64,000 bases of DNA, from NCBI GenBank assembly GCA_963753055.1, contig CAVWAP010000002.1:257411-321410 (forward strand), written 5' to 3'. This document shows positions 38,821-47,841 of this stretch, in pieces. The notes under the pieces are model-generated. The model made no database searches and was not told where the DNA came from. It worked only from the letters and a program-made list of their open reading frames with translations. A program made the translations under genes and the position numbers. Numbering within the stretch: position 1 is the first letter of the stretch; each line of letters opens with the position of its first letter. The DNA is from an uncultured Bacteroidales bacterium. Its GTDB lineage: Bacteria; Bacteroidota; Bacteroidia; Bacteroidales; B18-G4.

Positions 38821-39618
38821 TTATTCAGGTACCATCTCAATTATTTCAAATCCTGTTATAGATTCTTCTGATGTAATAAACCGAACAGTTTCATCAATTT
38901 CAAGATTGAATTTAATATCATTATATCTCTGATCAATAAAAAATTTCTGCTCGGGATTATCATGGGAATAGATTTCTCCTTTCATTCTAATCGGATAGTA
39001 GGTCTGTTTGTCAATAAAATAAAAAGTATTCGAAACATTACCTTCGTTTTCTTCAAGTTTGGCCGCGAATCCAGGCATTGTCATTTTATTCCCCAGCCTA
39101 ATTACGATTTGAAAACAATACCTGCTCTCAATAACAGTATCCTTTAATCTCTCAATTGAGTATGAATCTGTGTTATCTAAAATATACCTGAACTCATATT
39201 GCATTCCATAAAGTGTATTATGGCTCCAAAAATGTTTATTCTTAAAATCAGGATATTTAACTAAATCGTATAGCCTGGCAACACTATCTCTAATATTTTT
39301 GCGAATCAGCCTATTCCCATCATATATATCTTCAAAAACCACATTTTCTGTATCGTTTACATACATGTACCAGTGCCCTTTTACACCGACGATAGAATCA
39401 GAAATCAGTCTTTTGAAATACATCTCTCGATAGCGAAAAATTGTATCATTAATATTTTGAGGATTTGTCCTCGCCATTTCTTGTTTATAGTAGACTGTTT
39501 CAATGGTATCGATTGTTTTTATTGTCTTTTGTAATATTTCCGAAGCTGTCTCTTTCTTATTACAAGAGCTTAATATCGTCAGTGCAGTCAATAAATATAT
39601 AACTCCGATTTTCTTCAT
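38821..39618 (-). CDS. hypothetical lipoprotein
   Basis: MKKIGVIYLLTALTILSSCNKK lipobox. 265 aa. No catalytic motif recognised. Confidence 0.6.
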   Translation of the reverse strand: MKKIGVIYLLTALTILSSCNKKETASEILQKTIKTIDTIETVYYKQEMARTNPQNINDTIFRYREMYFKRLISDSIVGVKGHWYMYVNDTENVVFEDIYDGNRLIRKNIRDSVARLYDLVKYPDFKNKHFWSHNTLYGMQYEFRYILDNTDSYSIERLKDTVIESRYCFQIVIRLGNKMTMPGFAAKLEENEGNVSNTFYFIDKQTYYPIRMKGEIYSHDNPEQKFFIDQRYNDIKFNLEIDETVRFITSEESITGFEIIEMVPE

Positions 39619-39721: not shown

Positions 39722-41470
39722 CTAGGCACTTTTGGCTTCTATGCTACCGTAGAAGGCGTGATTTTCTCCTTTTTCTATGGCCCAACTTGCATTTCCATAA
39801 TCAAAGTGCCAGTACTCTTTTATGTCAACCACAAAATCTTCTACCTCAAATAAATTAATAAGCAATTTTCTGTTCATTTTGGCTAGAGGTGAAATAAATG
39901 GATGGTATGGGTAGCATTTATCATTCAGGTTTATTTTTAGCCCCTCATTCGTACCAAAATCCATAATGCAATCTTCCTTCAAATCATATATTAAGGCATC
40001 TACAGCCCCTCCGGTTGAATGCATTGATTCCATTGCTGGGGCAATGAAATATGAAACTAATTCCTCAATTTCTTCTAATTGTTTATTGGGATATTCTTTT
40101 TGCAAAGATTCAACTTTTTCATCCCATAATAGTTTTTGATGTTCAAAAGATCTCCATGCAGACCGAATGATTAGTTTTTTATCTTGCTTGTCTAACAGTT
40201 TACTTATTCGGCCTATCTTATCAAAAACATCTTCTCGAACCATATAGTAGTATTCTTTTTTAATGGATGGTTCGAATATCAAATTAAATTCAGATTCTTT
40301 CAAGCTGATTAATCGGGAATTGTTTTCTTCTATTGAAACAGCTGGTAAAAGTTGTTTATGCTGGCGGTAATGTTTTTCAACCTTTTCGCAATATTCTTGT
40401 GCATTCATAAGATCATTTGTTTCTTTAATTACATATGGAGATGTCATTGCCGAGAGCAAAGCGCTATAATTCAAATCAAACTCCAATTCATTTCCTGCTT
40501 TTAATTTCATCTTCCTTGTACTAACAATGATATGGTCACTACTCGCCCCAAGGATATCAATAGTTGATCTTGGTGTCAATCCGGAAACCAGTACATCTTG
40601 TAGTCCTATGTTTAGTATAGATCTATTAATTGGACCTTGATCTTGAAACACTGGAACATTCCCCATTGCATCCTGGGCGGCATCTCCATAAGGAAGGGAA
40701 GGTTTTATTTTTGATTCAATAACTTCTGCAACCAGTGTAAACGCATCAGTAAAAAGCCCCGGAATTGGCTTTCTATAGAGGGTTTCACATCCCAAATAGA
40801 TTGACTCACCCAGTCGTAAGTTATTGATCTTGCCGATATCATTCGTAGAAATAAACCAATTATAATTGGCAGAATTTCCACCGGAAACAAAAGTTAATTT
40901 CAATCCGAAATTCTTTTCAACACCGCTTGCGATTGTTGACAAAAACTCCATTTTTTCTTTATCTGGTTTAATCCCTCCAAAACACGCCAGATTTGTTCCC
41001 AGGCCCACAAGTTCAATTCCTGCAAGCTCCAATACCTGTTTAATGGTACTGTCTAAATCCACTGGCATTAAACCTTCTCTTAAATCTCCCAGCTCCAGCA
41101 TAAGGATAATTTTGTGTGTGGATTTATTTTCGACGGCAAATTTTGAAAGTCTTTTGATTACAGAAAGCTCAGTATTGAGGCTTATATCTGTATATTTTAC
41201 AACTTCTTCGGCTTGGCTCAGGCTTGGTGTCCTTAGCAGGAGAAAAAGGGCCTGAACGCCTGCATTGCGCATCTTCTTAATATTAGTAATCCTTGAATCA
41301 GCAAGGATATTTATCCCACTTTTTACTAAAGAATTTGCGATACCAGGATCCCCACATACTGCCTTTGTAACTCCAATAACATCAATTCCCTTTGAGCCGT
41401 ATAGTTCTTTTAATGTTTTTGCATTATGGGCAATTTTTCCAAGATTTATTTCTATTCTGGGGGTTACCAT
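39722..41470 (-). CDS. fusion protein: PLP-dependent alanine/ornithine racemase-like domain + M15 (VanX/DdpX-type) D-Ala-D-Ala dipeptidase domain
   Basis: The N-terminal approx 365 aa carry IDVIGVTKAV (PLP Lys) in a racemase-type barrel. The C-terminal approx 200 aa carry RSAWRSFEHQKLLW, SMHSTGGAVD (SxHxxGxAxD), MDFGT and EYWHF. Confidence 0.8.
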   Translation of the reverse strand: MVTPRIEINLGKIAHNAKTLKELYGSKGIDVIGVTKAVCGDPGIANSLVKSGINILADSRITNIKKMRNAGVQALFLLLRTPSLSQAEEVVKYTDISLNTELSVIKRLSKFAVENKSTHKIILMLELGDLREGLMPVDLDSTIKQVLELAGIELVGLGTNLACFGGIKPDKEKMEFLSTIASGVEKNFGLKLTFVSGGNSANYNWFISTNDIGKINNLRLGESIYLGCETLYRKPIPGLFTDAFTLVAEVIESKIKPSLPYGDAAQDAMGNVPVFQDQGPINRSILNIGLQDVLVSGLTPRSTIDILGASSDHIIVSTRKMKLKAGNELEFDLNYSALLSAMTSPYVIKETNDLMNAQEYCEKVEKHYRQHKQLLPAVSIEENNSRLISLKESEFNLIFEPSIKKEYYYMVREDVFDKIGRISKLLDKQDKKLIIRSAWRSFEHQKLLWDEKVESLQKEYPNKQLEEIEELVSYFIAPAMESMHSTGGAVDALIYDLKEDCIMDFGTNEGLKINLNDKCYPYHPFISPLAKMNRKLLINLFEVEDFVVDIKEYWHFDYGNASWAIEKGENHAFYGSIEAKSA

Positions 41471-42597
41471 ACGCGAACAGATTGTTTTTGTAATTCTGGG
41501 AATGCTACGAATAGTTCTTTAACCAATTTATCACAACCATGTTTTAGTACGTCAGTAGTAGGTAGTTCATATTTGTATTCGTATTCCGCTATTGTTGTTT
41601 CTAATTCTTCTTCGGTCATATCTTCATGGTTAATTGTGATAGCAATCACCTTCGCTTTTGAGAACACTTCTATTAATTCGATCTCACTTTCAAGGGTAGG
41701 CATTGGTATGTTGGAATAATCGCAATGATTTTTTCTTTTTGGTGGATGCTGGAGAATAATTGCATTTGGCATGGCACCTCTTAATATGGCACTTGATGAG
41801 GTAAAGGCAGGATGGCTCAAGGCTCCTTGCCCTTCAACGACTATAATGTCAGGCTGCTCTTTTTCATAAGCGTCTAATATTGCATTTTCAACCTCTCCGG
41901 TTGCAAAGCCTGAAGTTAATACATCTATTGCAATACCATATTTTGAACCCTGAAGAATGCCGGTTTGTCCTGTTGCTATAAATGCAGCTTTCAGCCCCTC
42001 TTTTCTTAAGGCATCAACTAAATTTACAGTGGTTGTTCTTTTTCCAACAGCACAATCGGTTCCAAATACAGTGATTACCGGAATTTTGACTTTATTGATT
42101 TTTCCTGAAAAAATATGCAGTTCTTTTCGTGGTGGTGGTTTTCTGATATCATAAATCCTAACACCATATTCACTGGCTTTTTGCCTGTATTCTTCATTAT
42201 CGGTGAAGAATTCCGGCAATCCGTTTACAATGTTCATTCCTTTTTTCATAGCACTGAAAATAATGTTTTTCTGGTCCTCGTCAAGAAAGGAAGCAAGCGG
42301 AGCTATGCCATAGATGAAATATTCCGGAACAAGGTTCAACTTATTAATGGCGTCATCAATATTTCGGAAAACAGGTATCCCTGTTCTTTCCCCATCAAGA
42401 TATTCTCCTGCATCAAGTCCTGCCTTTGTGCTATCTATAATACCTAAAATGTCATACTTTTCTGAGTGCCTGGCAAGGCCATTTGCAACTTTTCCGTCTA
42501 ATTGCCCAAATTCATTTTCACTATATACAAGTGCTTTTTTTTTCATGTTCATTTTTTTCGTTAATAGCTTAGTATTCTTTTTTGAATACATATTCAA
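41464..42597 (-). CDS. DUF1611 family protein (DgcN-like)
   Basis: KALVYSENEFGQLDGKVANGL N-terminal pattern and P-loop-like GTDCAVGKRTT. The true start is probably an internal Met (MNMKKKALVY). Overlaps the downstream fusion gene by 7 nt. Confidence 0.75.
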   Translation of the reverse strand: MNMYSKKNTKLLTKKMNMKKKALVYSENEFGQLDGKVANGLARHSEKYDILGIIDSTKAGLDAGEYLDGERTGIPVFRNIDDAINKLNLVPEYFIYGIAPLASFLDEDQKNIIFSAMKKGMNIVNGLPEFFTDNEEYRQKASEYGVRIYDIRKPPPRKELHIFSGKINKVKIPVITVFGTDCAVGKRTTTVNLVDALRKEGLKAAFIATGQTGILQGSKYGIAIDVLTSGFATGEVENAILDAYEKEQPDIIVVEGQGALSHPAFTSSSAILRGAMPNAIILQHPPKRKNHCDYSNIPMPTLESEIELIEVFSKAKVIAITINHEDMTEEELETTIAEYEYKYELPTTDVLKHGCDKLVKELFVAFPELQKQSVRVW

Positions 42598-42668
42598 TAG
42601 TTTTTTCTCGGTTTATTTCAAGATATTAATGTATTTATCGGATAAGCTAAATGACTTATTACAGTACT

Positions 42669-43040
42669 TTAGCTAAAATCCTCATAACCGCTTTTTATAA
42701 GAGTGGATAGCATTTTGAACTTCTCGTTTGCTTTTATTGTGTTACGGGAATGGGCGGGTATGATAATGGATTGACCTGTTTCAAGTAAATTGGATTTGTC
42801 ATCAATCACAACTTCAGCATTCCCCTCAATAATCTGAATGAAGATTTCAAAGGGTGATGTTTTTCCACACAACAGTTCACCTGAATCAAATGAAACGGCG
42901 CTGACATTTCCAGTTATTCTTTTAATAATTGACTTGATCACTACTGAATTAGGGATGTATTCGATGACCTCAACTACTTTAAATGCTTTTGATTTTGTAA
43001 ATTCAGTGCTTTCCATTGTGTATACTCTATTATACTGCAA
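42669..43040 (-). CDS. cupin domain protein
   Basis: 123 aa with an FIQIIEGNAEVVID....G.SIIIPAHSRN two-motif cupin pattern. Confidence 0.7.
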   Translation of the reverse strand: MQYNRVYTMESTEFTKSKAFKVVEVIEYIPNSVVIKSIIKRITGNVSAVSFDSGELLCGKTSPFEIFIQIIEGNAEVVIDDKSNLLETGQSIIIPAHSRNTIKANEKFKMLSTLIKSGYEDFS

Positions 43041-43097
43041 AAGTAGAGCTAATTAATATTCAGAGCATTACACAAAAATGATGAAATCTTACATATA

Positions 43098-43658
43098 TCA
43101 CATGTTTTCAAGGTTTTTCATGCGTTTTTGCTTCATTTGCTTGTAAAAAGATGGACTAAGGCCGGTGATTTTCTTGAACTGGTTGGATAAATGTGCTACG
43201 CTGCTATAATGTAGCTTGTTGGAAATTTCGGTAAGATTCAATTCGTCATATAATAGCAATTCCTTTACCTTTTCAATTTTGTTGATGATAATAAATTGTT
43301 GTATAGTAATACCCTTGACTTCCGAAAATGTGTTAGCCAGGTACGTATAATCATAACCCAATTTTTCACTTATATAATCAGAATAATTCACTTTAGGTAA
43401 TTCATCAGTATAATGAATCATTTCTATAATCACATTTTTTATTTTCTCAATCAGAATACTTTTTTTATCATCCAGCAATTCCAGTCCTGACTTGAGTAAA
43501 TTCTTTTTTAGCTTTCCCCATTGTTCATCATCAATATTTTCATAGGTTTCTACCGTGCCAAGGTCTATCGTTTTATATAGTATACCAAGTTTTTCGAGTT
43601 CTGCCTTAACCATCATCTTGCATCGGAGACTCACCATGTATTTGATATAAATTCTCAT
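43098..43658 (-). CDS. AraC family transcriptional regulator
   Basis: C-terminal LTEISNKLHYSSVAHLSNQFKKITGLSPSFY HTH_18 pattern. Confidence 0.8.
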   Translation of the reverse strand: MRIYIKYMVSLRCKMMVKAELEKLGILYKTIDLGTVETYENIDDEQWGKLKKNLLKSGLELLDDKKSILIEKIKNVIIEMIHYTDELPKVNYSDYISEKLGYDYTYLANTFSEVKGITIQQFIIINKIEKVKELLLYDELNLTEISNKLHYSSVAHLSNQFKKITGLSPSFYKQMKQKRMKNLENM

Positions 43659-43689
43659 AGGCTATTTTGGCGTATTGTTCATTACCTCC

Positions 43690-43808
43690 AACGTTCCCGG
43701 CGCATGGGCCGGGGCGTGTGTTTTTGTGTCGTGGCAGCGGGGCGCTATTTTCTGGATTAAATATACAAAAACGCCTTCTATATGTCCCGCTGTTTCGGGA
43801 CAAAGTTT
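43690..43808. mobile_element. approx 120-bp MITE-like unit (GC-rich-end variant)
   Basis: AACGTTCCCGGCGCATGGGCCGGGGCG ... GTCCCGCTGTTTCGGGACAAAGTTTT. Homologous to 25240-25362. Confidence 0.45.
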
Positions 43809-43924
43809 TAAAGGGAGAACCCTTGCCAGTTTTCTGAAAGGTATGCTTACCCTAAAACACTGCCCTGGCCTATTGCGCCGTGTTATGATCCTGTAGCCTT
43901 AACCGGTGCAATTCTGACCAGGGG

Positions 43925-44291
43925 ACTGGCACAGAATTTGACTTTCATATTTCTTCATTTCTTTTGCTTGTCCAAAAGAAACGAAGCAAAGAAAAGGACA
44001 GCACGAATGCAGCCCTTTCTCCCCACGGTCAGACTTCCCACCGCACAGTCCCCGAAAGGGGCACACCATTCGTGCACTCCCCGCACCGGCTAGCACTGAT
44101 TGATCTATGCTTCTCAGTTGGCAAAATGTAGAGCCGGCTATAAATAGAAAAGCTAGTTACTTGTAACGGTCATCCTGATCCCGCGGAGCAAAGCGAGGCG
44201 GGAGAAGGACCTCAATCATTTTAGCAGTCAGCTAGCAGAAACAGACTGTCAGCTTTCCGAAAAGGGAGAGGGTAAGGCTATTGGATATAAC
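43925..44291 (+). repeat. approx 370-nt GC-rich structured element, copy C
   Basis: Near-identical to copies A and B. Contains the CCCC-GAAA-GGGG hairpin inside the GCACGAATG/CATTCGTGC stem. Confidence 0.8.
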
Positions 44292-44558
44292 TAGTTTATA
44301 TGTGCACCTTTGTTCCTGAGTTCCTCTGTTCAACATGTTGTCCCTTTTTTGATATCTGATTCGTGATCCACCTTCGCTGCGCTTCGGTGGACAACGTATC
44401 TGATATCTGATTTATGATTTTTCTGGTCACTGGCCCGCCCATGCGAAGGCAGGTGTCACTCGTCACGACTGATCACTGTTCAGTGATCAGTGTTCACCGA
44501 TTTTGATCCTGCGCACTTTTTTCGTATATTGTTTGTCTCTATATTAACACCAATAGAG

Positions 44559-45473
44559 ATGAAACAAACAAAAATCTATTCAATAGTACTATTCTCTTTT
44601 TTATTAAATGTTTGCCCGCTATGTGGACAGAATAACATAGATGATGAAGGGTATATTAAAGAAGACTCTATGAATCTTGCTGTTCTTGTTGTAGACTTCC
44701 TTACATACGAATTCGAAGAAGCAAATATCTCTTATTACTTACTTTGCGATAGCTGTGACCTGGATAGCCTTCCATTCAATATAATCTTTGAATATCCTAT
44801 GGATTTTGGAGAAATTCTGTATAAATATTCATGGGATGATGACACCTTGTTTCATGGATCAATTATATGGTTAGGAACAGGAGAAATTCATTATCCAGAT
44901 CAGTTTTTTCCTGCAGACTCTTTTGGAATAAGCAATAATCAAGTGTCAATTCCTTCAAATGCACAATACTATGATTATTGGCTGATCGGCCACTCATATT
45001 GTTCTGAAGAAAGGTATAAGGAAAGAGCAGATTCAGCATGGTTTTCAATCGACTCCTTACTATTGGTAAATGAATTTGCAAATCATTCATTTCGTGTAGG
45101 ATTCTATGCATATACTCCAAGTGTTGGCATGTTTAATCCTTATGTTGCAAAATGGATCATCTTTCTTTACTATGGCAATGACTTTGGAGTAAGTGTCCCT
45201 GAATGCGATAAGGATAACTATTTCACACATCCTTACCCTAACCCCTGCGCAAGCGTTGCACGCTTGAGATTAACGATTACCGACCAACGATTAGCGATAT
45301 GTGATTTATATTCGATTTCGGGAAGTAAGATTTTGAGATTGATGGAAGAAGAGAAACTGCCAGGGGAATATGAAATTGAGATAAATGTGAGTGATTTGCC
45401 AGCAGGTATTTACTACATAAGGATGCAGGTTGGTGAGAATGTTGGTGTTAGAAAATTGGTGAAGATGGAATAA
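44559..45473 (+). CDS. T9SS C-terminal sorting domain protein (hypothetical cargo)
   Basis: The ATG at 44559 gives MKQTKIYSIVLFSFLLNVCPLCGQ. The C-terminus is YPNPCASVARL...LPAGIYYIRMQVGENVGVRKLVKME. Confidence 0.8.
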   Translation: MKQTKIYSIVLFSFLLNVCPLCGQNNIDDEGYIKEDSMNLAVLVVDFLTYEFEEANISYYLLCDSCDLDSLPFNIIFEYPMDFGEILYKYSWDDDTLFHGSIIWLGTGEIHYPDQFFPADSFGISNNQVSIPSNAQYYDYWLIGHSYCSEERYKERADSAWFSIDSLLLVNEFANHSFRVGFYAYTPSVGMFNPYVAKWIIFLYYGNDFGVSVPECDKDNYFTHPYPNPCASVARLRLTITDQRLAICDLYSISGSKILRLMEEEKLPGEYEIEINVSDLPAGIYYIRMQVGENVGVRKLVKME

Positions 45474-46182: not shown

Positions 46183-47841
46183 TTAATTCTCGCCATTTGA
46201 AAGATGAATCCTGATTTGCAACTCGGGATAATCAGTCTGTAAAGTGTCAACACATATACCTGGAAACTCCGGGTAAGCCTGGTGAGACACCAGATAAATG
46301 GCATTTGGTATCTGGACGTCCCAGGTTCGTTGTACGATATATCCAACCGAGTTGGTCAGGTAAAAAGATACCGGTTCCCTGATGTAAGCATCGCCGTAGA
46401 CATACCAGTATTTATCCGGGTATTTGGCAGCCAGCGCCCAAACATCTGCCCGGGCTGGCGTAACAATTGAATCTTGCGTCCGAATAGGAAGCACAACCAG
46501 ATCAAAACAAATCCTGCCAACCAGTAAAGCGCCCACGAACCACCAGATAAGCCGTTCTTTATGTTTGAAATAAAGCCATGAGAGAGCAAGTAGCGCCAAA
46601 CCGATTGGAATACTGATCCAGAAAATATGCGGTATGGTGCTGGTTTTGGGATACCATGGCAGAACCAGTACAAGAACACCTGCACCAACGATGAAAAACC
46701 CAATTATCCCGTAAAAAATCTTGCTTCTCCAGTTTGATGAGCCTGCCTTTTGCATCAGGTAAATCCCAATTGTGTTGAATAGAGGAATAAACATGAGCAA
46801 ATACCGTGGGAGTACCTGCGGGGATGTCCAGTAAACGATCAGGTTAATGCCCAGTATCCAGAAATGATAGCGGGCGAAATCATTGGTTAGCAGTTTTTTC
46901 CAGAACTTACGATCCAGCCAGAAGATGACCAGGAGCGACCAGGGTAAAAAATGATAAATATTATCTAATGGGAAGGTAAGCAGGTGGACCCAGAATCTCC
47001 ACCATTCATGGATAATGACTGTGCGCTGTGCCGATTCGTGAAACAGGTTTTCAAAATACACATCCATTGGCCTGTAAATACTCAATATGCCAAGGTAGGT
47101 TCCCAATATTACAAGGGCAATGCTACCGCCTGCAAGATGTTGCCAGGAGAACAGCCGGCGCCCCTGCCGGAAAAACAGTAATCCAGTGATCAGGCTTAAT
47201 CCCTGGAAAACTATAGCAGGCATGCCCTTAAACATAAATCCCACCGACATTAACAGGTAGCTCCACACAAAGAGCCTCATCCAGTTTCCGCGTTTTCCTT
47301 CCCTGTAAATTACCATGAACAAAGCGTACATAGTCCATGAAAATGCCGTGTCTATCAGTCCCAGCATGGAGTCATAAAACAAAATACGGCCACTGGTGAC
47401 AAGCATCATGGAGCCAAGAAATGCTATGGTTTTACCGAATTCAGGTTTCAAGACCCGGTAGTGAAGCCAGGCAAAGCCCAGGAGAGAAAGCAAAGTGCAT
47501 ATCCTTGTGGGCCATTCGCCGAAACTTCCCCAAACTTCTGAAACGAGCAGAATAAACCAATTCCACAGCGGGGGCTTGTTGATATAATCGGCACCATGCA
47601 TGGTGGTGGCAATAAAGTTTCCCGATAGCTTCATCTCAAAAGCCACCAGCGATCGAATGGCTTCATCGCCGGTAAAAGCATACATGCCCAGATTAATAAG
47701 AAAAGCAGGAATTGCCAGAATGACAATCCCCAGGGCAAGCTGTCTGTTGCTGATATTATTTACCCAATTGCTTATTTTTTGTTGTATTGCTGGCAATAGT
47801 AAGATTCTGTGTCTAACAACATTTGACCAAAAAAGCTTCAA
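46183..47841 (-). CDS. GT-C fold (ArnT/PMT-like, GT39/GT83-type) membrane glycosyltransferase
   Basis: About 12 TM helices and a first periplasmic loop FTGDEAIRS (DE motif). Confidence 0.75.
   Translation of the reverse strand: MKLFWSNVVRHRILLLPAIQQKISNWVNNISNRQLALGIVILAIPAFLINLGMYAFTGDEAIRSLVAFEMKLSGNFIATTMHGADYINKPPLWNWFILLVSEVWGSFGEWPTRICTLLSLLGFAWLHYRVLKPEFGKTIAFLGSMMLVTSGRILFYDSMLGLIDTAFSWTMYALFMVIYREGKRGNWMRLFVWSYLLMSVGFMFKGMPAIVFQGLSLITGLLFFRQGRRLFSWQHLAGGSIALVILGTYLGILSIYRPMDVYFENLFHESAQRTVIIHEWWRFWVHLLTFPLDNIYHFLPWSLLVIFWLDRKFWKKLLTNDFARYHFWILGINLIVYWTSPQVLPRYLLMFIPLFNTIGIYLMQKAGSSNWRSKIFYGIIGFFIVGAGVLVLVLPWYPKTSTIPHIFWISIPIGLALLALSWLYFKHKERLIWWFVGALLVGRICFDLVVLPIRTQDSIVTPARADVWALAAKYPDKYWYVYGDAYIREPVSFYLTNSVGYIVQRTWDVQIPNAIYLVSHQAYPEFPGICVDTLQTDYPELQIRIHLSNGEN

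What the first reader, a model, noticed from the sequence alone, without database searches (positions are those of the whole stretch)
39722..43658. AraC, cupin, DUF1611 and a racemase::D-Ala-D-Ala-dipeptidase fusion: candidate D-amino-acid/peptidoglycan-peptide salvage operon with an unusual fusion enzyme
Four co-directional genes make up the cluster. The last two overlap by 7 nt.

The terminal 582-aa protein joins two domains:
- A PLP-dependent alanine/ornithine-racemase-type barrel (Lys in GVTKAV).
- A complete M15 VanX/DdpX-type domain (SMHSTGGAVD, MDFGT, EYWHF).

In one polypeptide this would couple hydrolysis of a D-Ala-D-Ala-type dipeptide to racemisation of the released D-amino acid.

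DUF1611 proteins have been linked to D-glutamate handling (DgcN-type) and are often found next to racemases or epimerases. A cupin and an AraC regulator complete the unit.

I do not recognise this fusion as a characterised enzyme.
Basis: partly seen in the sequence, partly recalled or inferred. Interest (0 to 1): 0.6.

Follow-up and report, generated by a model that had tools for sequence, protein, structure and literature searches.

The report
Racemase-dipeptidase fusion in D-amino-acid cassette
The four genes and the fused racemase/dipeptidase are real and belong to an unstudied three-enzyme D-amino-acid cassette found in at least 242 mostly marine species, but the fusion is only an easily gained and lost join of two neighbouring genes.

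Summary
On the minus strand lie AraC (43658-43098), a small cupin (43016-42669), DUF1611 (42597-41464) and a 582-aa fusion (41470-39722). The last two genes overlap by ATGGTAA.

The fusion's N-terminal domain is an ornithine-racemase-type (OrnR/Orr) PLP enzyme. Its Lys36/Cys163 catalytic pair is invariant, so it is not an alanine racemase. The C-terminal domain is a divergent VanX-like M15 zinc dipeptidase with all catalytic residues. Its predicted fold is closest to VanX.

The fusion is not an artefact: 54 of 90 related loci carry it, including cultured Aquimarina isolates. It is not a singular invention either. In 29 loci the same two genes are adjacent but separate, and the state changed at least 6 times on the gene tree.

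The conserved core is DUF1611 - racemase - M15. It is spread across many phyla with 60-85% identity. AraC and cupin accompany it mainly in Bacteroidota. In Heimdallarchaeota MAGs a Ddl-type ligase replaces DUF1611 and M15 is absent.

Most likely function: a cytoplasmic cassette that cleaves, racemises and N-acylates a D-amino acid, probably a basic one. Direction and substrate remain unresolved. No member has been characterised in the literature I could search. I rate it a new variant of a known kind, of moderate interest.

The parts
43098..43658 (-). Short AraC-family regulator (186 aa). It has two HTH motifs at the C-terminus, a ~90-aa N-terminal domain of unknown type, and no cupin sensor domain of its own.
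   Evidence: Pfam HTH_18 8.9e-15 and HTH_AraC 4.4e-13. An orthologue at 73-91% identity lies near the cassette in 31 of 37 Bacteroidota loci with enough flank.
43038..43045 (-). Candidate Bacteroidetes -7 promoter box, TACTTTTG (consensus TAnnTTTG), about 22 nt upstream of the cupin ATG.
   Evidence: Read directly. The consensus is recalled from established knowledge of Bacteroidetes sigma-A promoters. Not tested statistically.
42669..43016 (-). Small single-domain cupin (115 aa from the ATG at 43016). Only a degenerate second cupin motif (PAH..N) is recognisable, with no clear metal-binding His motif. Possibly a ligand sensor acting in trans for the cupin-less AraC.
   Evidence: Cupin_2 7.7e-5, below cut-off. 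Nearest solved structures are uncharacterised structural-genomics cupins: 3rns at 8.8e-14 and 1yhf at 4.2e-8. An orthologue is present in 31 of 90 loci and stays next to AraC even where both are displaced 2-7 kb, as in Aquimarina.
41464..42597 (-). DUF1611 protein (DgcN-like P-loop acyl-CoA N-acyltransferase family). 377 aa from the TTG. Most homologues start near Met16 (42552).
   Evidence: DUF1611_N 1.8e-19 and DUF1611 2.2e-70. NCBIfam DgcN scores 174 bits against a cut-off of 480. Solved relatives: 2g0t at 1e-51, 2obn, and 7xrj at 1.4e-29. It sits directly upstream of the racemase in 81 of 90 loci. It is the only copy in the genome.
40421..41470 (-). Racemase domain of the fusion (residues 1-350). 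OrnR/Orr-type fold-III PLP enzyme with K36, R131, N160, C163, R219 and Y346.
   Evidence: NCBIfam Orr scores 390.8 bits against a cut-off of 480, full length. The catalytic set is defined in PMC13397332. These residues are invariant in 87 close and 40 distant homologues. Foldseek hits alanine racemases and YhfX 4kbx.
40409..40420 (-). Four-residue linker (ETND, residues 351-354, then L-M355) between the last racemase element (SPYVIK) and the first M15 residue. This is where split relatives carry the stop codon and the M15 start codon.
   Evidence: Junction comparison of 19 loci. In G540/L025 the racemase ends in TAA and the M15 ATG follows 4 nt later.
39722..40408 (-). VanX-like M15 zinc dipeptidase domain (residues 355-582 plus stop). 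Key residues are R440, H484, D491, E552 and H555.
   Evidence: Pfam Peptidase_M15 scores 37 bits against a cut-off of 27. It aligns to VanX H116, D123, E181 and H184. The residues are invariant in 51 sequences. The AF2 model has pLDDT 93.8. The best PDB match is VanX 1r44, E 9.2e-10, TM 0.59/0.65, followed by LdcB, VanY and VanXYc.

Best explanation
This is a horizontally mobile, cytoplasmic cassette of three enzymes that all act on the alpha-centre of one D-amino acid.

1. The VanX-like M15 domain hydrolyses an amide whose amine side is a D-amino acid with a free carboxylate. The substrate would be a D-terminated dipeptide or an N-acyl-D-amino acid.
2. The OrnR-type PLP/Cys racemase domain is tethered about 9 residues upstream of the M15 domain. 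It converts the released D-amino acid to the L-form. The substrate is most likely a basic or diamino acid such as ornithine or lysine.
3. The DUF1611 protein is a relative of the acetyl-CoA-dependent D-glutamate N-acetyltransferase DgcN. It N-acylates an amino acid of the same pool, which traps or buffers it.

In Bacteroidota a cupin-less AraC regulator and a separately encoded small cupin control the cassette.

The fusion is a loss of the stop codon between two translationally coupled genes. It fixes 1:1 stoichiometry and proximity but is not required for function.

Shown: the gene content, the catalytic residues, the folds, the conservation, the lability of the fusion, and the absence of the DgcA-type partner. 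Inferred: the substrate, the order of the steps, and the net direction (salvage).
For: -
- The rac-M15 pair is adjacent or fused in 84 of 90 loci. DUF1611 lies directly upstream in 81 of 90. No other neighbour is conserved.
- Other fusions of this racemase family place a hydrolase or a pathway enzyme after the racemase: arginase family, 2,4-diaminopentanoate dehydrogenase, Ddl. That is Rosetta-stone evidence for consecutive steps around ornithine-type substrates.
- Several features favour uptake and catabolism: an AraC-type regulator; an expanded variant with an SSF importer, Alr, an M20 peptidase and a GNAT (L048); and a variant with an NhaC-family transporter right after M15 (L051).
- The genome has no enolase-superfamily racemase. 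DUF1611 therefore cannot work in the published DgcN-DgcA way here and must work with the PLP racemase.
- The distribution is accessory and patchy: 3 fused loci plus 1 split pair among 301 genomes of the order, and 1 of 401 in the phylum sample. Yet identity across phyla is 60-85%.
Against: - No enzyme of the cassette has been assayed, and substrates are guesses.
- All three NCBIfam equivalog cut-offs (Orr, DdpX/VanX, DgcN) are missed by wide margins.
- No transporter is conserved with the core.
- A PLP racemase needs a free alpha-amine, so DUF1611 cannot feed it. In M15-less relatives the racemase is coupled only to DUF1611 or to a Ddl-type ligase. That reads more naturally as L to D followed by amide formation, which is the anabolic direction.
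- A D-specific acylase and a D-specific amide hydrolase in one operon look like a futile cycle.
- Some taxon labels of the MAG loci may be binning errors.
Confidence: 0.42

Rival explanations
1. Synthesis and turnover cycle. The racemase makes a D-amino acid from the L-form. DUF1611 (or, in Heimdallarchaeota, a Ddl-type ligase) converts it irreversibly into an N-acyl-D-amino acid or D-dipeptide. This product is metabolically inert: a compatible solute, a store or a signal. The M15 domain fused to the racemase is the return path (deacylate, then racemise back).
For: - Characterised relatives of both upstream partners are D-specific amide formers (DgcN per NCBIfam NF041892; Ddl family).
- DUF1611 is displaced by a Ddl-type ligase at the same, translationally coupled position. 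This happens inside a tight racemase subclade of 83-84% identity.
- Racemase::Ddl fusions exist (P0230).
- No importer is conserved.
- The hosts are marine or saline. In some Aquimarina loci MscS and Band-7 genes lie between the cassette and its AraC.
- N-acetylated diamino acids are known solutes (N-alpha-acetyl-lysine, cited in PMC13759103).
Against: - Synthesis and breakdown in one operon would cycle futilely.
- The racemase is fused to the hydrolase, not to the acyltransferase.
- AraC-type control is more typical of catabolic operons.
- VanX-type enzymes are known for dipeptides with a free N-terminus, not for N-acetyl amino acids (my own knowledge).
- The MscS neighbourhood is confined to Aquimarina.
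Confidence: 0.28
2. Van-like remodelling of cell-wall precursors. A racemase, an amide-forming enzyme and a VanX-type dipeptidase would replace D-Ala-D-Ala termini by another D-residue, as VanT/VanC/VanXY do.
For: - The triad racemase + amide former + VanX-like M15 mirrors VanC/E/G-type cassettes.
- The best structural neighbours of the M15 domain are VanX, VanY and VanXYc.
- Weak NCBIfam hits to VanT and VanX.
Against: - The window has no Ddl-family ligase in the cassette. DUF1611 is not an ATP-grasp enzyme.
- There is no VanRS-type two-component system.
- Scores against the VanX and VanT equivalogs are far below cut-off: 24.9 against 320 and 27.8 against 460.
- The only variant with a Ddl-type ligase lacks M15 and lies in Heimdallarchaeota MAGs, a group that lacks peptidoglycan (my own knowledge).
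Confidence: 0.07
3. The fused ORF is an assembly or annotation artefact, or a decaying pseudogene, with no joint function.
For: Several long-read metagenome contigs show frameshifted copies (L049, L052).
Against: - The same open fused frame occurs in 54 independent loci, including Aquimarina isolate genomes.
- The internal Met has been lost in Aquimarina and others, so only the fused protein can be made there.
- All catalytic residues are invariant.
Confidence: 0.01

Closest known systems
DgcN-DgcA D-glutamate catabolic route (Yu et al. 2023, ISME J 17:537, as cited in PMC12363236 and PMC13759103; NCBIfam NF041892)
   Same: A DUF1611-family protein is coupled to an amino-acid racemase in a marine D-amino-acid context. 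The general logic of acylate, invert and deacylate is shared.
   Different: - The partner here is a PLP/Cys OrnR-type racemase, which needs a free alpha-amine. It is not an enolase-superfamily N-acetyl-D-Glu racemase, and the genome has no MR_MLE_C protein at all.
- DUF1611 scores 174 bits against a cut-off of 480.
- A VanX-like M15 hydrolase is part of the unit.
Ornithine racemase OrnR/Orr (Salmonella OrnR, Clostridium sticklandii Orr; PMC13397332; NCBIfam NF040742)
   Same: There is a full-length match to the family model. The catalytic Lys36/Cys163 pair, R131, R219 and N160 in place of the stacking His, and the C-terminal Tyr are all present.
   Different: - It falls below the Orr cut-off (390.8 against 480).
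- It is not in an ornithine-fermentation operon: tblastn with the Ord domain of P0133 found no Ord in the genome. No decarboxylase is conserved beside it.
- It is fused or coupled to an M15 peptidase and a DUF1611 protein.
- Its substrate is untested.
VanX / DdpX / PcgL D-Ala-D-Ala dipeptidases (MEROPS M15D; Pfam PF01427)
   Same: It has the Zn ligands H-x6-D and H, the catalytic Glu in ExxH, and the Arg. It is cytoplasmic. The predicted fold is closest to VanX 1r44.
   Different: - Only 18% identity to VanX, and far below the DdpX and VanX equivalog cut-offs.
- It carries an extra N-terminal 20-residue helix.
- No dipeptide permease operon such as ddpABCDF accompanies it (operon recalled from my own knowledge; no such neighbour).
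- It is joined to a racemase.
VanC/E/G-type resistance cassettes (VanT racemase, Ddl-family ligase, VanXY M15 peptidase)
   Same: The same three kinds of chemistry sit in one unit: a racemase, an amide former and an M15 D,D-peptidase.
   Different: A different racemase subfamily, DUF1611 instead of a ligase, AraC instead of VanRS, and no evidence of a link to the cell wall.

Membership tests
Ornithine racemase OrnR/Orr (NF040742) | Fold-type III PLP barrel with a full-length match to the family model | tested here: met
   PF01168 at 1.6e-23. The Orr model aligns over residues 4-350 of the protein and positions 2-350 of 351 in the model.
Ornithine racemase OrnR/Orr (NF040742) | Catalytic Lys plus Cys (no Tyr base), two PLP-binding Arg, and Asn in place of the stacking His | tested here: met
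   K36, C163, R131, R219 and N160 are present. They are invariant in 127 homologues. The definition is from PMC13397332.
Ornithine racemase OrnR/Orr (NF040742) | Score at or above NCBI's curated cut-off (480 bits) | tested here: not met
   390.8 bits.
Ornithine racemase OrnR/Orr (NF040742) | Context of ornithine fermentation (Ora/Ord) or a D-Orn/Lys decarboxylase operon | tested here: not met
   tblastn with the Ord domain found no hit in the own genome. The conserved neighbours are only DUF1611, M15, AraC and cupin.
Ornithine racemase OrnR/Orr (NF040742) | Racemisation of ornithine | not testable with these tools
   Needs an enzyme assay.
VanX/DdpX-type M15D dipeptidase (PF01427) | Pfam model above the gathering score | tested here: met
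   37 bits against 27, covering residues 422-562.
VanX/DdpX-type M15D dipeptidase (PF01427) | Zn ligands His/Asp/His, the catalytic Glu and the transition-state Arg | tested here: met
   H484, D491, H555, E552 and R440 align to VanX H116, D123, H184 and E181. They are invariant in 51 sequences.
VanX/DdpX-type M15D dipeptidase (PF01427) | VanX-like fold | tested here: met
   AF2 pLDDT 93.8. The top Foldseek hit is 1r44, E 9.2e-10, TM 0.59/0.65.
VanX/DdpX-type M15D dipeptidase (PF01427) | Equivalog-level similarity to DdpX (NF007557) or VanX (NF033115) | tested here: not met
   36.1 bits against 176, and 24.9 bits against 320.
VanX/DdpX-type M15D dipeptidase (PF01427) | Hydrolysis of D-Ala-D-Ala | not testable with these tools
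   Needs an enzyme assay.
DgcN D-glutamate N-acetyltransferase (NF041892) | DUF1611_N plus DUF1611 P-loop architecture | tested here: met
   1.8e-19 and 2.2e-70. 7xrj matches at 1.4e-29; that this entry is the DgcN structure is my own recollection, since its PDB name is only a generic 'putative NAD-dependent epimerase/dehydratase family protein'.
DgcN D-glutamate N-acetyltransferase (NF041892) | Score at or above the curated cut-off (480 bits) | tested here: not met
   174.1 bits.
DgcN D-glutamate N-acetyltransferase (NF041892) | Enolase-superfamily partner DgcA in the genome | tested here: not met
   PF13378 gave no hit in the own genome, while the control genomes did match.
Van-type D-Ala-D-X remodelling cassette | Ddl-family ligase and a VanRS two-component system in the cluster | tested here: not met
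   The window cassette has DUF1611 and AraC instead. A Ddl-type ligase is seen only in the Heimdallarchaeota variant, which lacks M15.

The most novel reading that the evidence does not exclude
The cassette does not salvage environmental D-peptides. It builds and recycles a D-configured, N-acylated basic amino acid (for example N-acetyl-D-ornithine or N-acetyl-D-lysine) or a D-dipeptide as an inert cytoplasmic solute or store. The racemase is shared by the synthetic arm (DUF1611, or a Ddl-type ligase in archaea) and by the degradative arm (the fused VanX-like domain). This would be a new class of D-amino-acid metabolite with a new physiological role for VanX-type and DUF1611 enzymes.
Probability: 0.12. 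Interest if true: 0.75.

Novelty: new variant of a known kind. Interest (0 to 1): 0.45.

Why it matters
D-amino acids are a large, poorly degradable part of marine organic nitrogen. Only a few routes that handle them are known.

This cassette combines three enzyme families, each with exactly one well-understood role: ornithine racemase, the vancomycin-resistance dipeptidase VanX, and the D-glutamate acetyltransferase DgcN. No described pathway uses them in this arrangement.

It occurs in at least 242 species genomes across many phyla. These include cultured Aquimarina, Tenacibaculum and Psychroserpens, so it can be tested directly by genetics and enzymology.

Solving it would do several things:
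- assign a function to a large DUF1611 subgroup;
- widen the known substrate range of the OrnR and VanX families;
- show that VanX-like genes in environmental metagenomes need not signal glycopeptide resistance.

The fusion itself is a useful Rosetta-stone link but not a mechanistic novelty.

Tried and rejected
2. Literature: 'DUF1611' gave only two unrelated papers. COG3367, TM0796, PF07755 and IPR011669 gave nothing, and neither did 'ornithine racemase + D-Ala-D-Ala dipeptidase' or 'racemase + dipeptidase + fusion + Bacteroidetes'. The DgcN paper itself (PMC10030869) is not held.
3. Peptidoglycan-recycling reading: I clustered all neighbouring ORFs of 90 loci. Nothing beyond DUF1611, AraC and cupin is conserved. 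I rejected it as the default.
4. DgcN-DgcA reading: rejected, because the genome has no enolase-superfamily protein.
5. Ornithine-fermentation reading: rejected, because tblastn with an Ord domain found no Ord homologue.
6. Aquimarina neighbours (GT14 Branch, Cpn10, MscS, Band 7, SpeA-like, agmatinase-like) are lineage-specific and are not part of the cassette.
7. Synteny test for insertion in the window's family: the flanking 552-aa membrane protein has no homologue in the two same-family genomes, so the test gave no information.
8. Rfam scan of the whole window: no hits.
9. Inter-domain contacts: the full-length AF2 model has pTM of only 0.60, and neither coordinates nor PAE were available to me. 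No claim about channelling geometry can be made beyond the short linker.

Full report
**1. The observation**

ORF listing and direct reading confirm four co-directional minus-strand genes:
- AraC, 43658-43098.
- A small cupin. The TTG at 43040 lies inside a TACTTTTG box that fits the Bacteroidetes -7 consensus. The ATG at 43016 is the likelier start, giving 115 aa.
- DUF1611, 42597-41464.
- A 582-aa ORF, 41470-39722.

The start of the last ORF overlaps the DUF1611 stop in ATGGTAA.

Pfam and NCBIfam scans give:
- HTH_18/HTH_AraC for the regulator.
- A sub-threshold Cupin_2 for the cupin.
- DUF1611_N plus DUF1611 (2.2e-70), with DgcN at 174 bits against a cut-off of 480.
- For the fusion, Ala_racemase_N (residues 8-226), a full-length match to the ornithine-racemase model Orr (390.8 bits against a cut-off of 480; residues 4-350), and Peptidase_M15/VanY (residues 411-562; 37 bits against a cut-off of 27).

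The downstream lipoprotein gene (38821-39618) has no family match and is not conserved with the cluster.

**2. What the two domains are**

A 2025 study of Salmonella OrnR (PMC13397332) shows that this racemase family lacks the catalytic Tyr of alanine racemases. It uses Lys36 plus a universally conserved Cys164, with Arg129, Arg220 and Asn161.

The window protein has K36, R131, N160, C163 and R219. These residues are invariant in 87 close and 40 distant homologues. It also has the C-terminal Tyr, Y346 in SPYVIK.

The N-terminal domain is therefore an OrnR-type racemase, not an alanine racemase. The only members that paper describes as characterised act on ornithine. A Thermotoga lysine racemase is said to belong to the same group, but that is my own recollection and was not checked.

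The C-terminal 228 residues align only weakly to solved M15 enzymes by sequence (VanX 1r44, LdcB 4ox3). They nevertheless keep every catalytic element:
- R440 in the SxWRS..HQ motif.
- H484 and D491 in SxHxxGxAxD.
- E552 and H555 in ExWH.

All of these are invariant in 51 sequences. An AF2 model of the domain alone is confident (pLDDT 93.8). Its best PDB neighbour is VanX (E 9.2e-10, TM 0.59/0.65), ahead of LdcB, VanY and VanXYc.

The full-length model (pLDDT 83, pTM 0.60) matches alanine racemases and E. coli YhfX in its first half.

**3. The fusion is real but labile**

The large protein collection holds more than 120 clusters of full-length 578-591-aa homologues at 70% identity or more. They are named 'alanine racemase' or 'predicted amino acid racemase/D-alanyl-D-alanine dipeptidase'. 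At 50% clustering, however, only about two clusters carry this architecture.

A scan of one genome per species found 242 species with a relative.

In 90 loci analysed by tblastn:
- 54 have the fused frame.
- 29 have the same two genes adjacent but separate.
- 6 have the racemase only.
- One (L048) is rearranged, with M15 lying apart from a different, 35%-identical racemase.

In G540 the racemase ends in TAA and the M15 gene starts 4 nt later. It starts at the Met that corresponds to M355 of the window protein.

Stand-alone 225-aa M15 proteins up to 86% identical to the window domain are common.

Junction comparison shows a 7-9-residue linker in fused forms and a stop codon within it in split forms. 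In Aquimarina and some Bacteroidales the internal Met is lost, so only the fused protein can be made.

On a maximum-likelihood tree of 74 rac+M15 pairs, the fused/split state needs at least 6 changes, of which 3 are forced by well-supported branches.

The fusion is therefore a recurrent read-through join of translationally coupled genes. It is good evidence for a functional link. It is not a unique enzyme invention.

**4. The conserved unit and its spread**

I clustered all neighbouring ORFs of the 90 loci. Only four families are conserved:
- the racemase, with or without M15 (90 loci);
- DUF1611, directly upstream and usually overlapping (81 loci);
- AraC (43 loci);
- the cupin (31 loci).

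AraC is present in 31 of 37 Bacteroidota loci with enough flank. Outside Bacteroidota it turned up only in some Ignavibacteriota, one Calditrichota locus and some loci without a phylum label.

In Aquimarina, AraC and the cupin have moved 2-7 kb away onto the other strand but stay close by. The AraC has no sensor cupin of its own. The free-standing cupin may therefore be its ligand-binding module in trans. This is inference.

Distribution is patchy:
- Only the own genome among 401 genomes sampled across the phylum.
- 3 fused loci plus 1 split pair among 301 genomes of the order. Both other genomes of the same family lack it.

Yet 60-85% identical copies occur in many groups:
- Bacteroidales, Flavobacteriaceae and Ignavibacteriota;
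- Marinimicrobia and Calditrichota;
- Zixibacteria, KSB1 and Cloacimonadota;
- Planctomycetota and others.

The gene tree does not follow taxonomy. This indicates horizontal spread, with the caveat that some MAG labels may be binning errors.

In the window, IS110- and IS3-family transposase genes lie 2-4 kb downstream.

**5. Variants that bear on function**

(a) L048 carries an expanded cluster. It holds AraC, DUF1611, a different OrnR-like racemase (35% identity), an alanine racemase, an M20 peptidase, a GNAT, an SSF importer and the M15.

(b) L051 has rac-M15 followed by an NhaC-family transporter and no DUF1611.

(c) A tight M15-less racemase subclade (83-84% identity within it) is coupled either to DUF1611 (Thermoplasmatota and proteobacterial MAGs) or to a Ddl-family ATP-grasp ligase. 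The ligase version occurs in three Heimdallarchaeota MAGs, at exactly the same position 1 nt upstream (Dala_Dala_lig_C at 8.7e-28).

(d) Elsewhere the OrnR-like domain is fused to arginase-family enzymes, to 2,4-diaminopentanoate dehydrogenase and to Ddl.

(e) The window's genome has a single DUF1611 and no enolase-superfamily protein. The published DgcN-DgcA scheme therefore cannot operate. A tblastn search with an Ord domain found no Ord homologue, so the ornithine-fermentation context is missing too.

(f) A distant DgcN homologue has been predicted to be an N-succinyl-L-glutamate synthase (PMC13759103). The family is best seen as acyl-CoA-dependent amino-acid N-acyltransferases of varying specificity.

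**6. Mechanism**

All three enzymes plausibly address the alpha-amine or alpha-carbon of one D-amino acid:
- M15 cleaves an amide N-terminal to a D-residue with a free carboxylate.
- The racemase inverts the free amino acid.
- DUF1611 acylates an amino group.

I favour a salvage direction: hydrolyse, racemise, then trap or buffer by acylation (0.42). The reasons are the hydrolase-racemase fusion, the analogy with arginase::racemase fusions, the AraC control and the importer-bearing variants.

The main rival (0.28) is a synthesis and turnover cycle of an N-acyl-D-amino acid or D-dipeptide. It is supported by the D-specific chemistry of the known relatives of DUF1611 and Ddl, by the DUF1611-to-Ddl displacement, and by the lack of a conserved importer.

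A Van-like wall-remodelling role (0.07) fits the triad formally but lacks the ligase and the regulators. The only variant with a Ddl-type ligase lacks M15 and sits in archaeal MAGs. An artefact is excluded (0.01).

The substrate is unknown. The racemase family points to ornithine or lysine-type amino acids rather than alanine.

**7. Comparison with the known, and verdict**

The cassette resembles the DgcN-DgcA route (DUF1611 plus racemase), DdpX/VanX dipeptide catabolism, and Van cassettes. It fails a defining feature of each: cut-off scores, partner enzymes, context. I do not file it as a member of any of them.

Earlier notes of this scan report other DUF1611 + PLP-racemase pairs and a D-aminoacylase + Orr-like pair. 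They are unchecked leads that fit the same general logic.

No paper in the searchable library describes this cassette or the fusion.

Verdict: a real, widespread, uncharacterised variant of D-amino-acid-processing modules. The fusion is ordinary in origin. Interest is moderate (0.45), helped by the presence of the cassette in cultured Aquimarina.

Noticed in passing
L118:5989-8068, L120:5983-8068, L124:5989-8053: In three Heimdallarchaeota MAG contigs (one of 467 kb), a Ddl-family ATP-grasp ligase is translationally coupled to a racemase 73-75% identical to the bacterial one. There is no M15 and no DUF1611. An EamA transporter lies divergently upstream in L118. This is a D-amino-acid ligase/racemase pair in MAGs of an archaeal group that lacks peptidoglycan (my own knowledge).
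   Followed up: partly
P0131, P0133, P0136, P0143-P0145, P0153, P0163, P0230 (protein ids): The OrnR-like racemase domain is fused in other lineages to arginase-family domains (many clusters), to 2,4-diaminopentanoate dehydrogenase, to a Ddl-type ligase, and to a second fold-III PLP domain. This makes a rich set of Rosetta-stone fusions around ornithine and D-amino-acid chemistry.
   Followed up: partly
L048:28-8705: An expanded D-amino-acid cluster: AraC, DUF1611, a second-type OrnR-like racemase, an alanine racemase, an M20 peptidase, a GNAT, an SSF importer and the M15 dipeptidase, on a 1.06-Mb metagenome contig.
   Followed up: no
window 34934-37648: An IS110-family transposase gene (34934-36139, minus strand) and an IS3-family element (36205-36495, which gave no Pfam hit, plus the rve integrase ORF at 36809-37648, plus strand) lie 2-4 kb downstream of the cassette. 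They are possible marks of a recently rearranged or acquired region.
   Followed up: partly
window 43659-44489: An 830-bp non-coding stretch upstream of AraC has higher G+C (about 0.46 against 0.31-0.38 around it). It contains three copies of an 18-nt motif (TGATATCTGATTCGTGAT-like; two close copies at 100% and 89%, a third at 72%) and two inverted repeats. There is no Rfam match.
   Followed up: partly
window 44490-45473 and 46183-47841: A T9SS-sorted secreted protein (Por_Secre_tail) and a 552-aa multi-pass membrane protein with no Pfam match flank the cassette upstream. The membrane protein has no homologue in the two same-family genomes searched.
   Followed up: partly
L100:163-4003 (Aquimarina mytili): In some Aquimarina loci, an Orn/Arg-decarboxylase-like gene and an arginase/agmatinase-family gene lie 2 kb upstream of DUF1611. 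MscS and Band-7 genes lie between the cupin and AraC. These neighbours are lineage-specific, so their relevance is unclear.
   Followed up: partly
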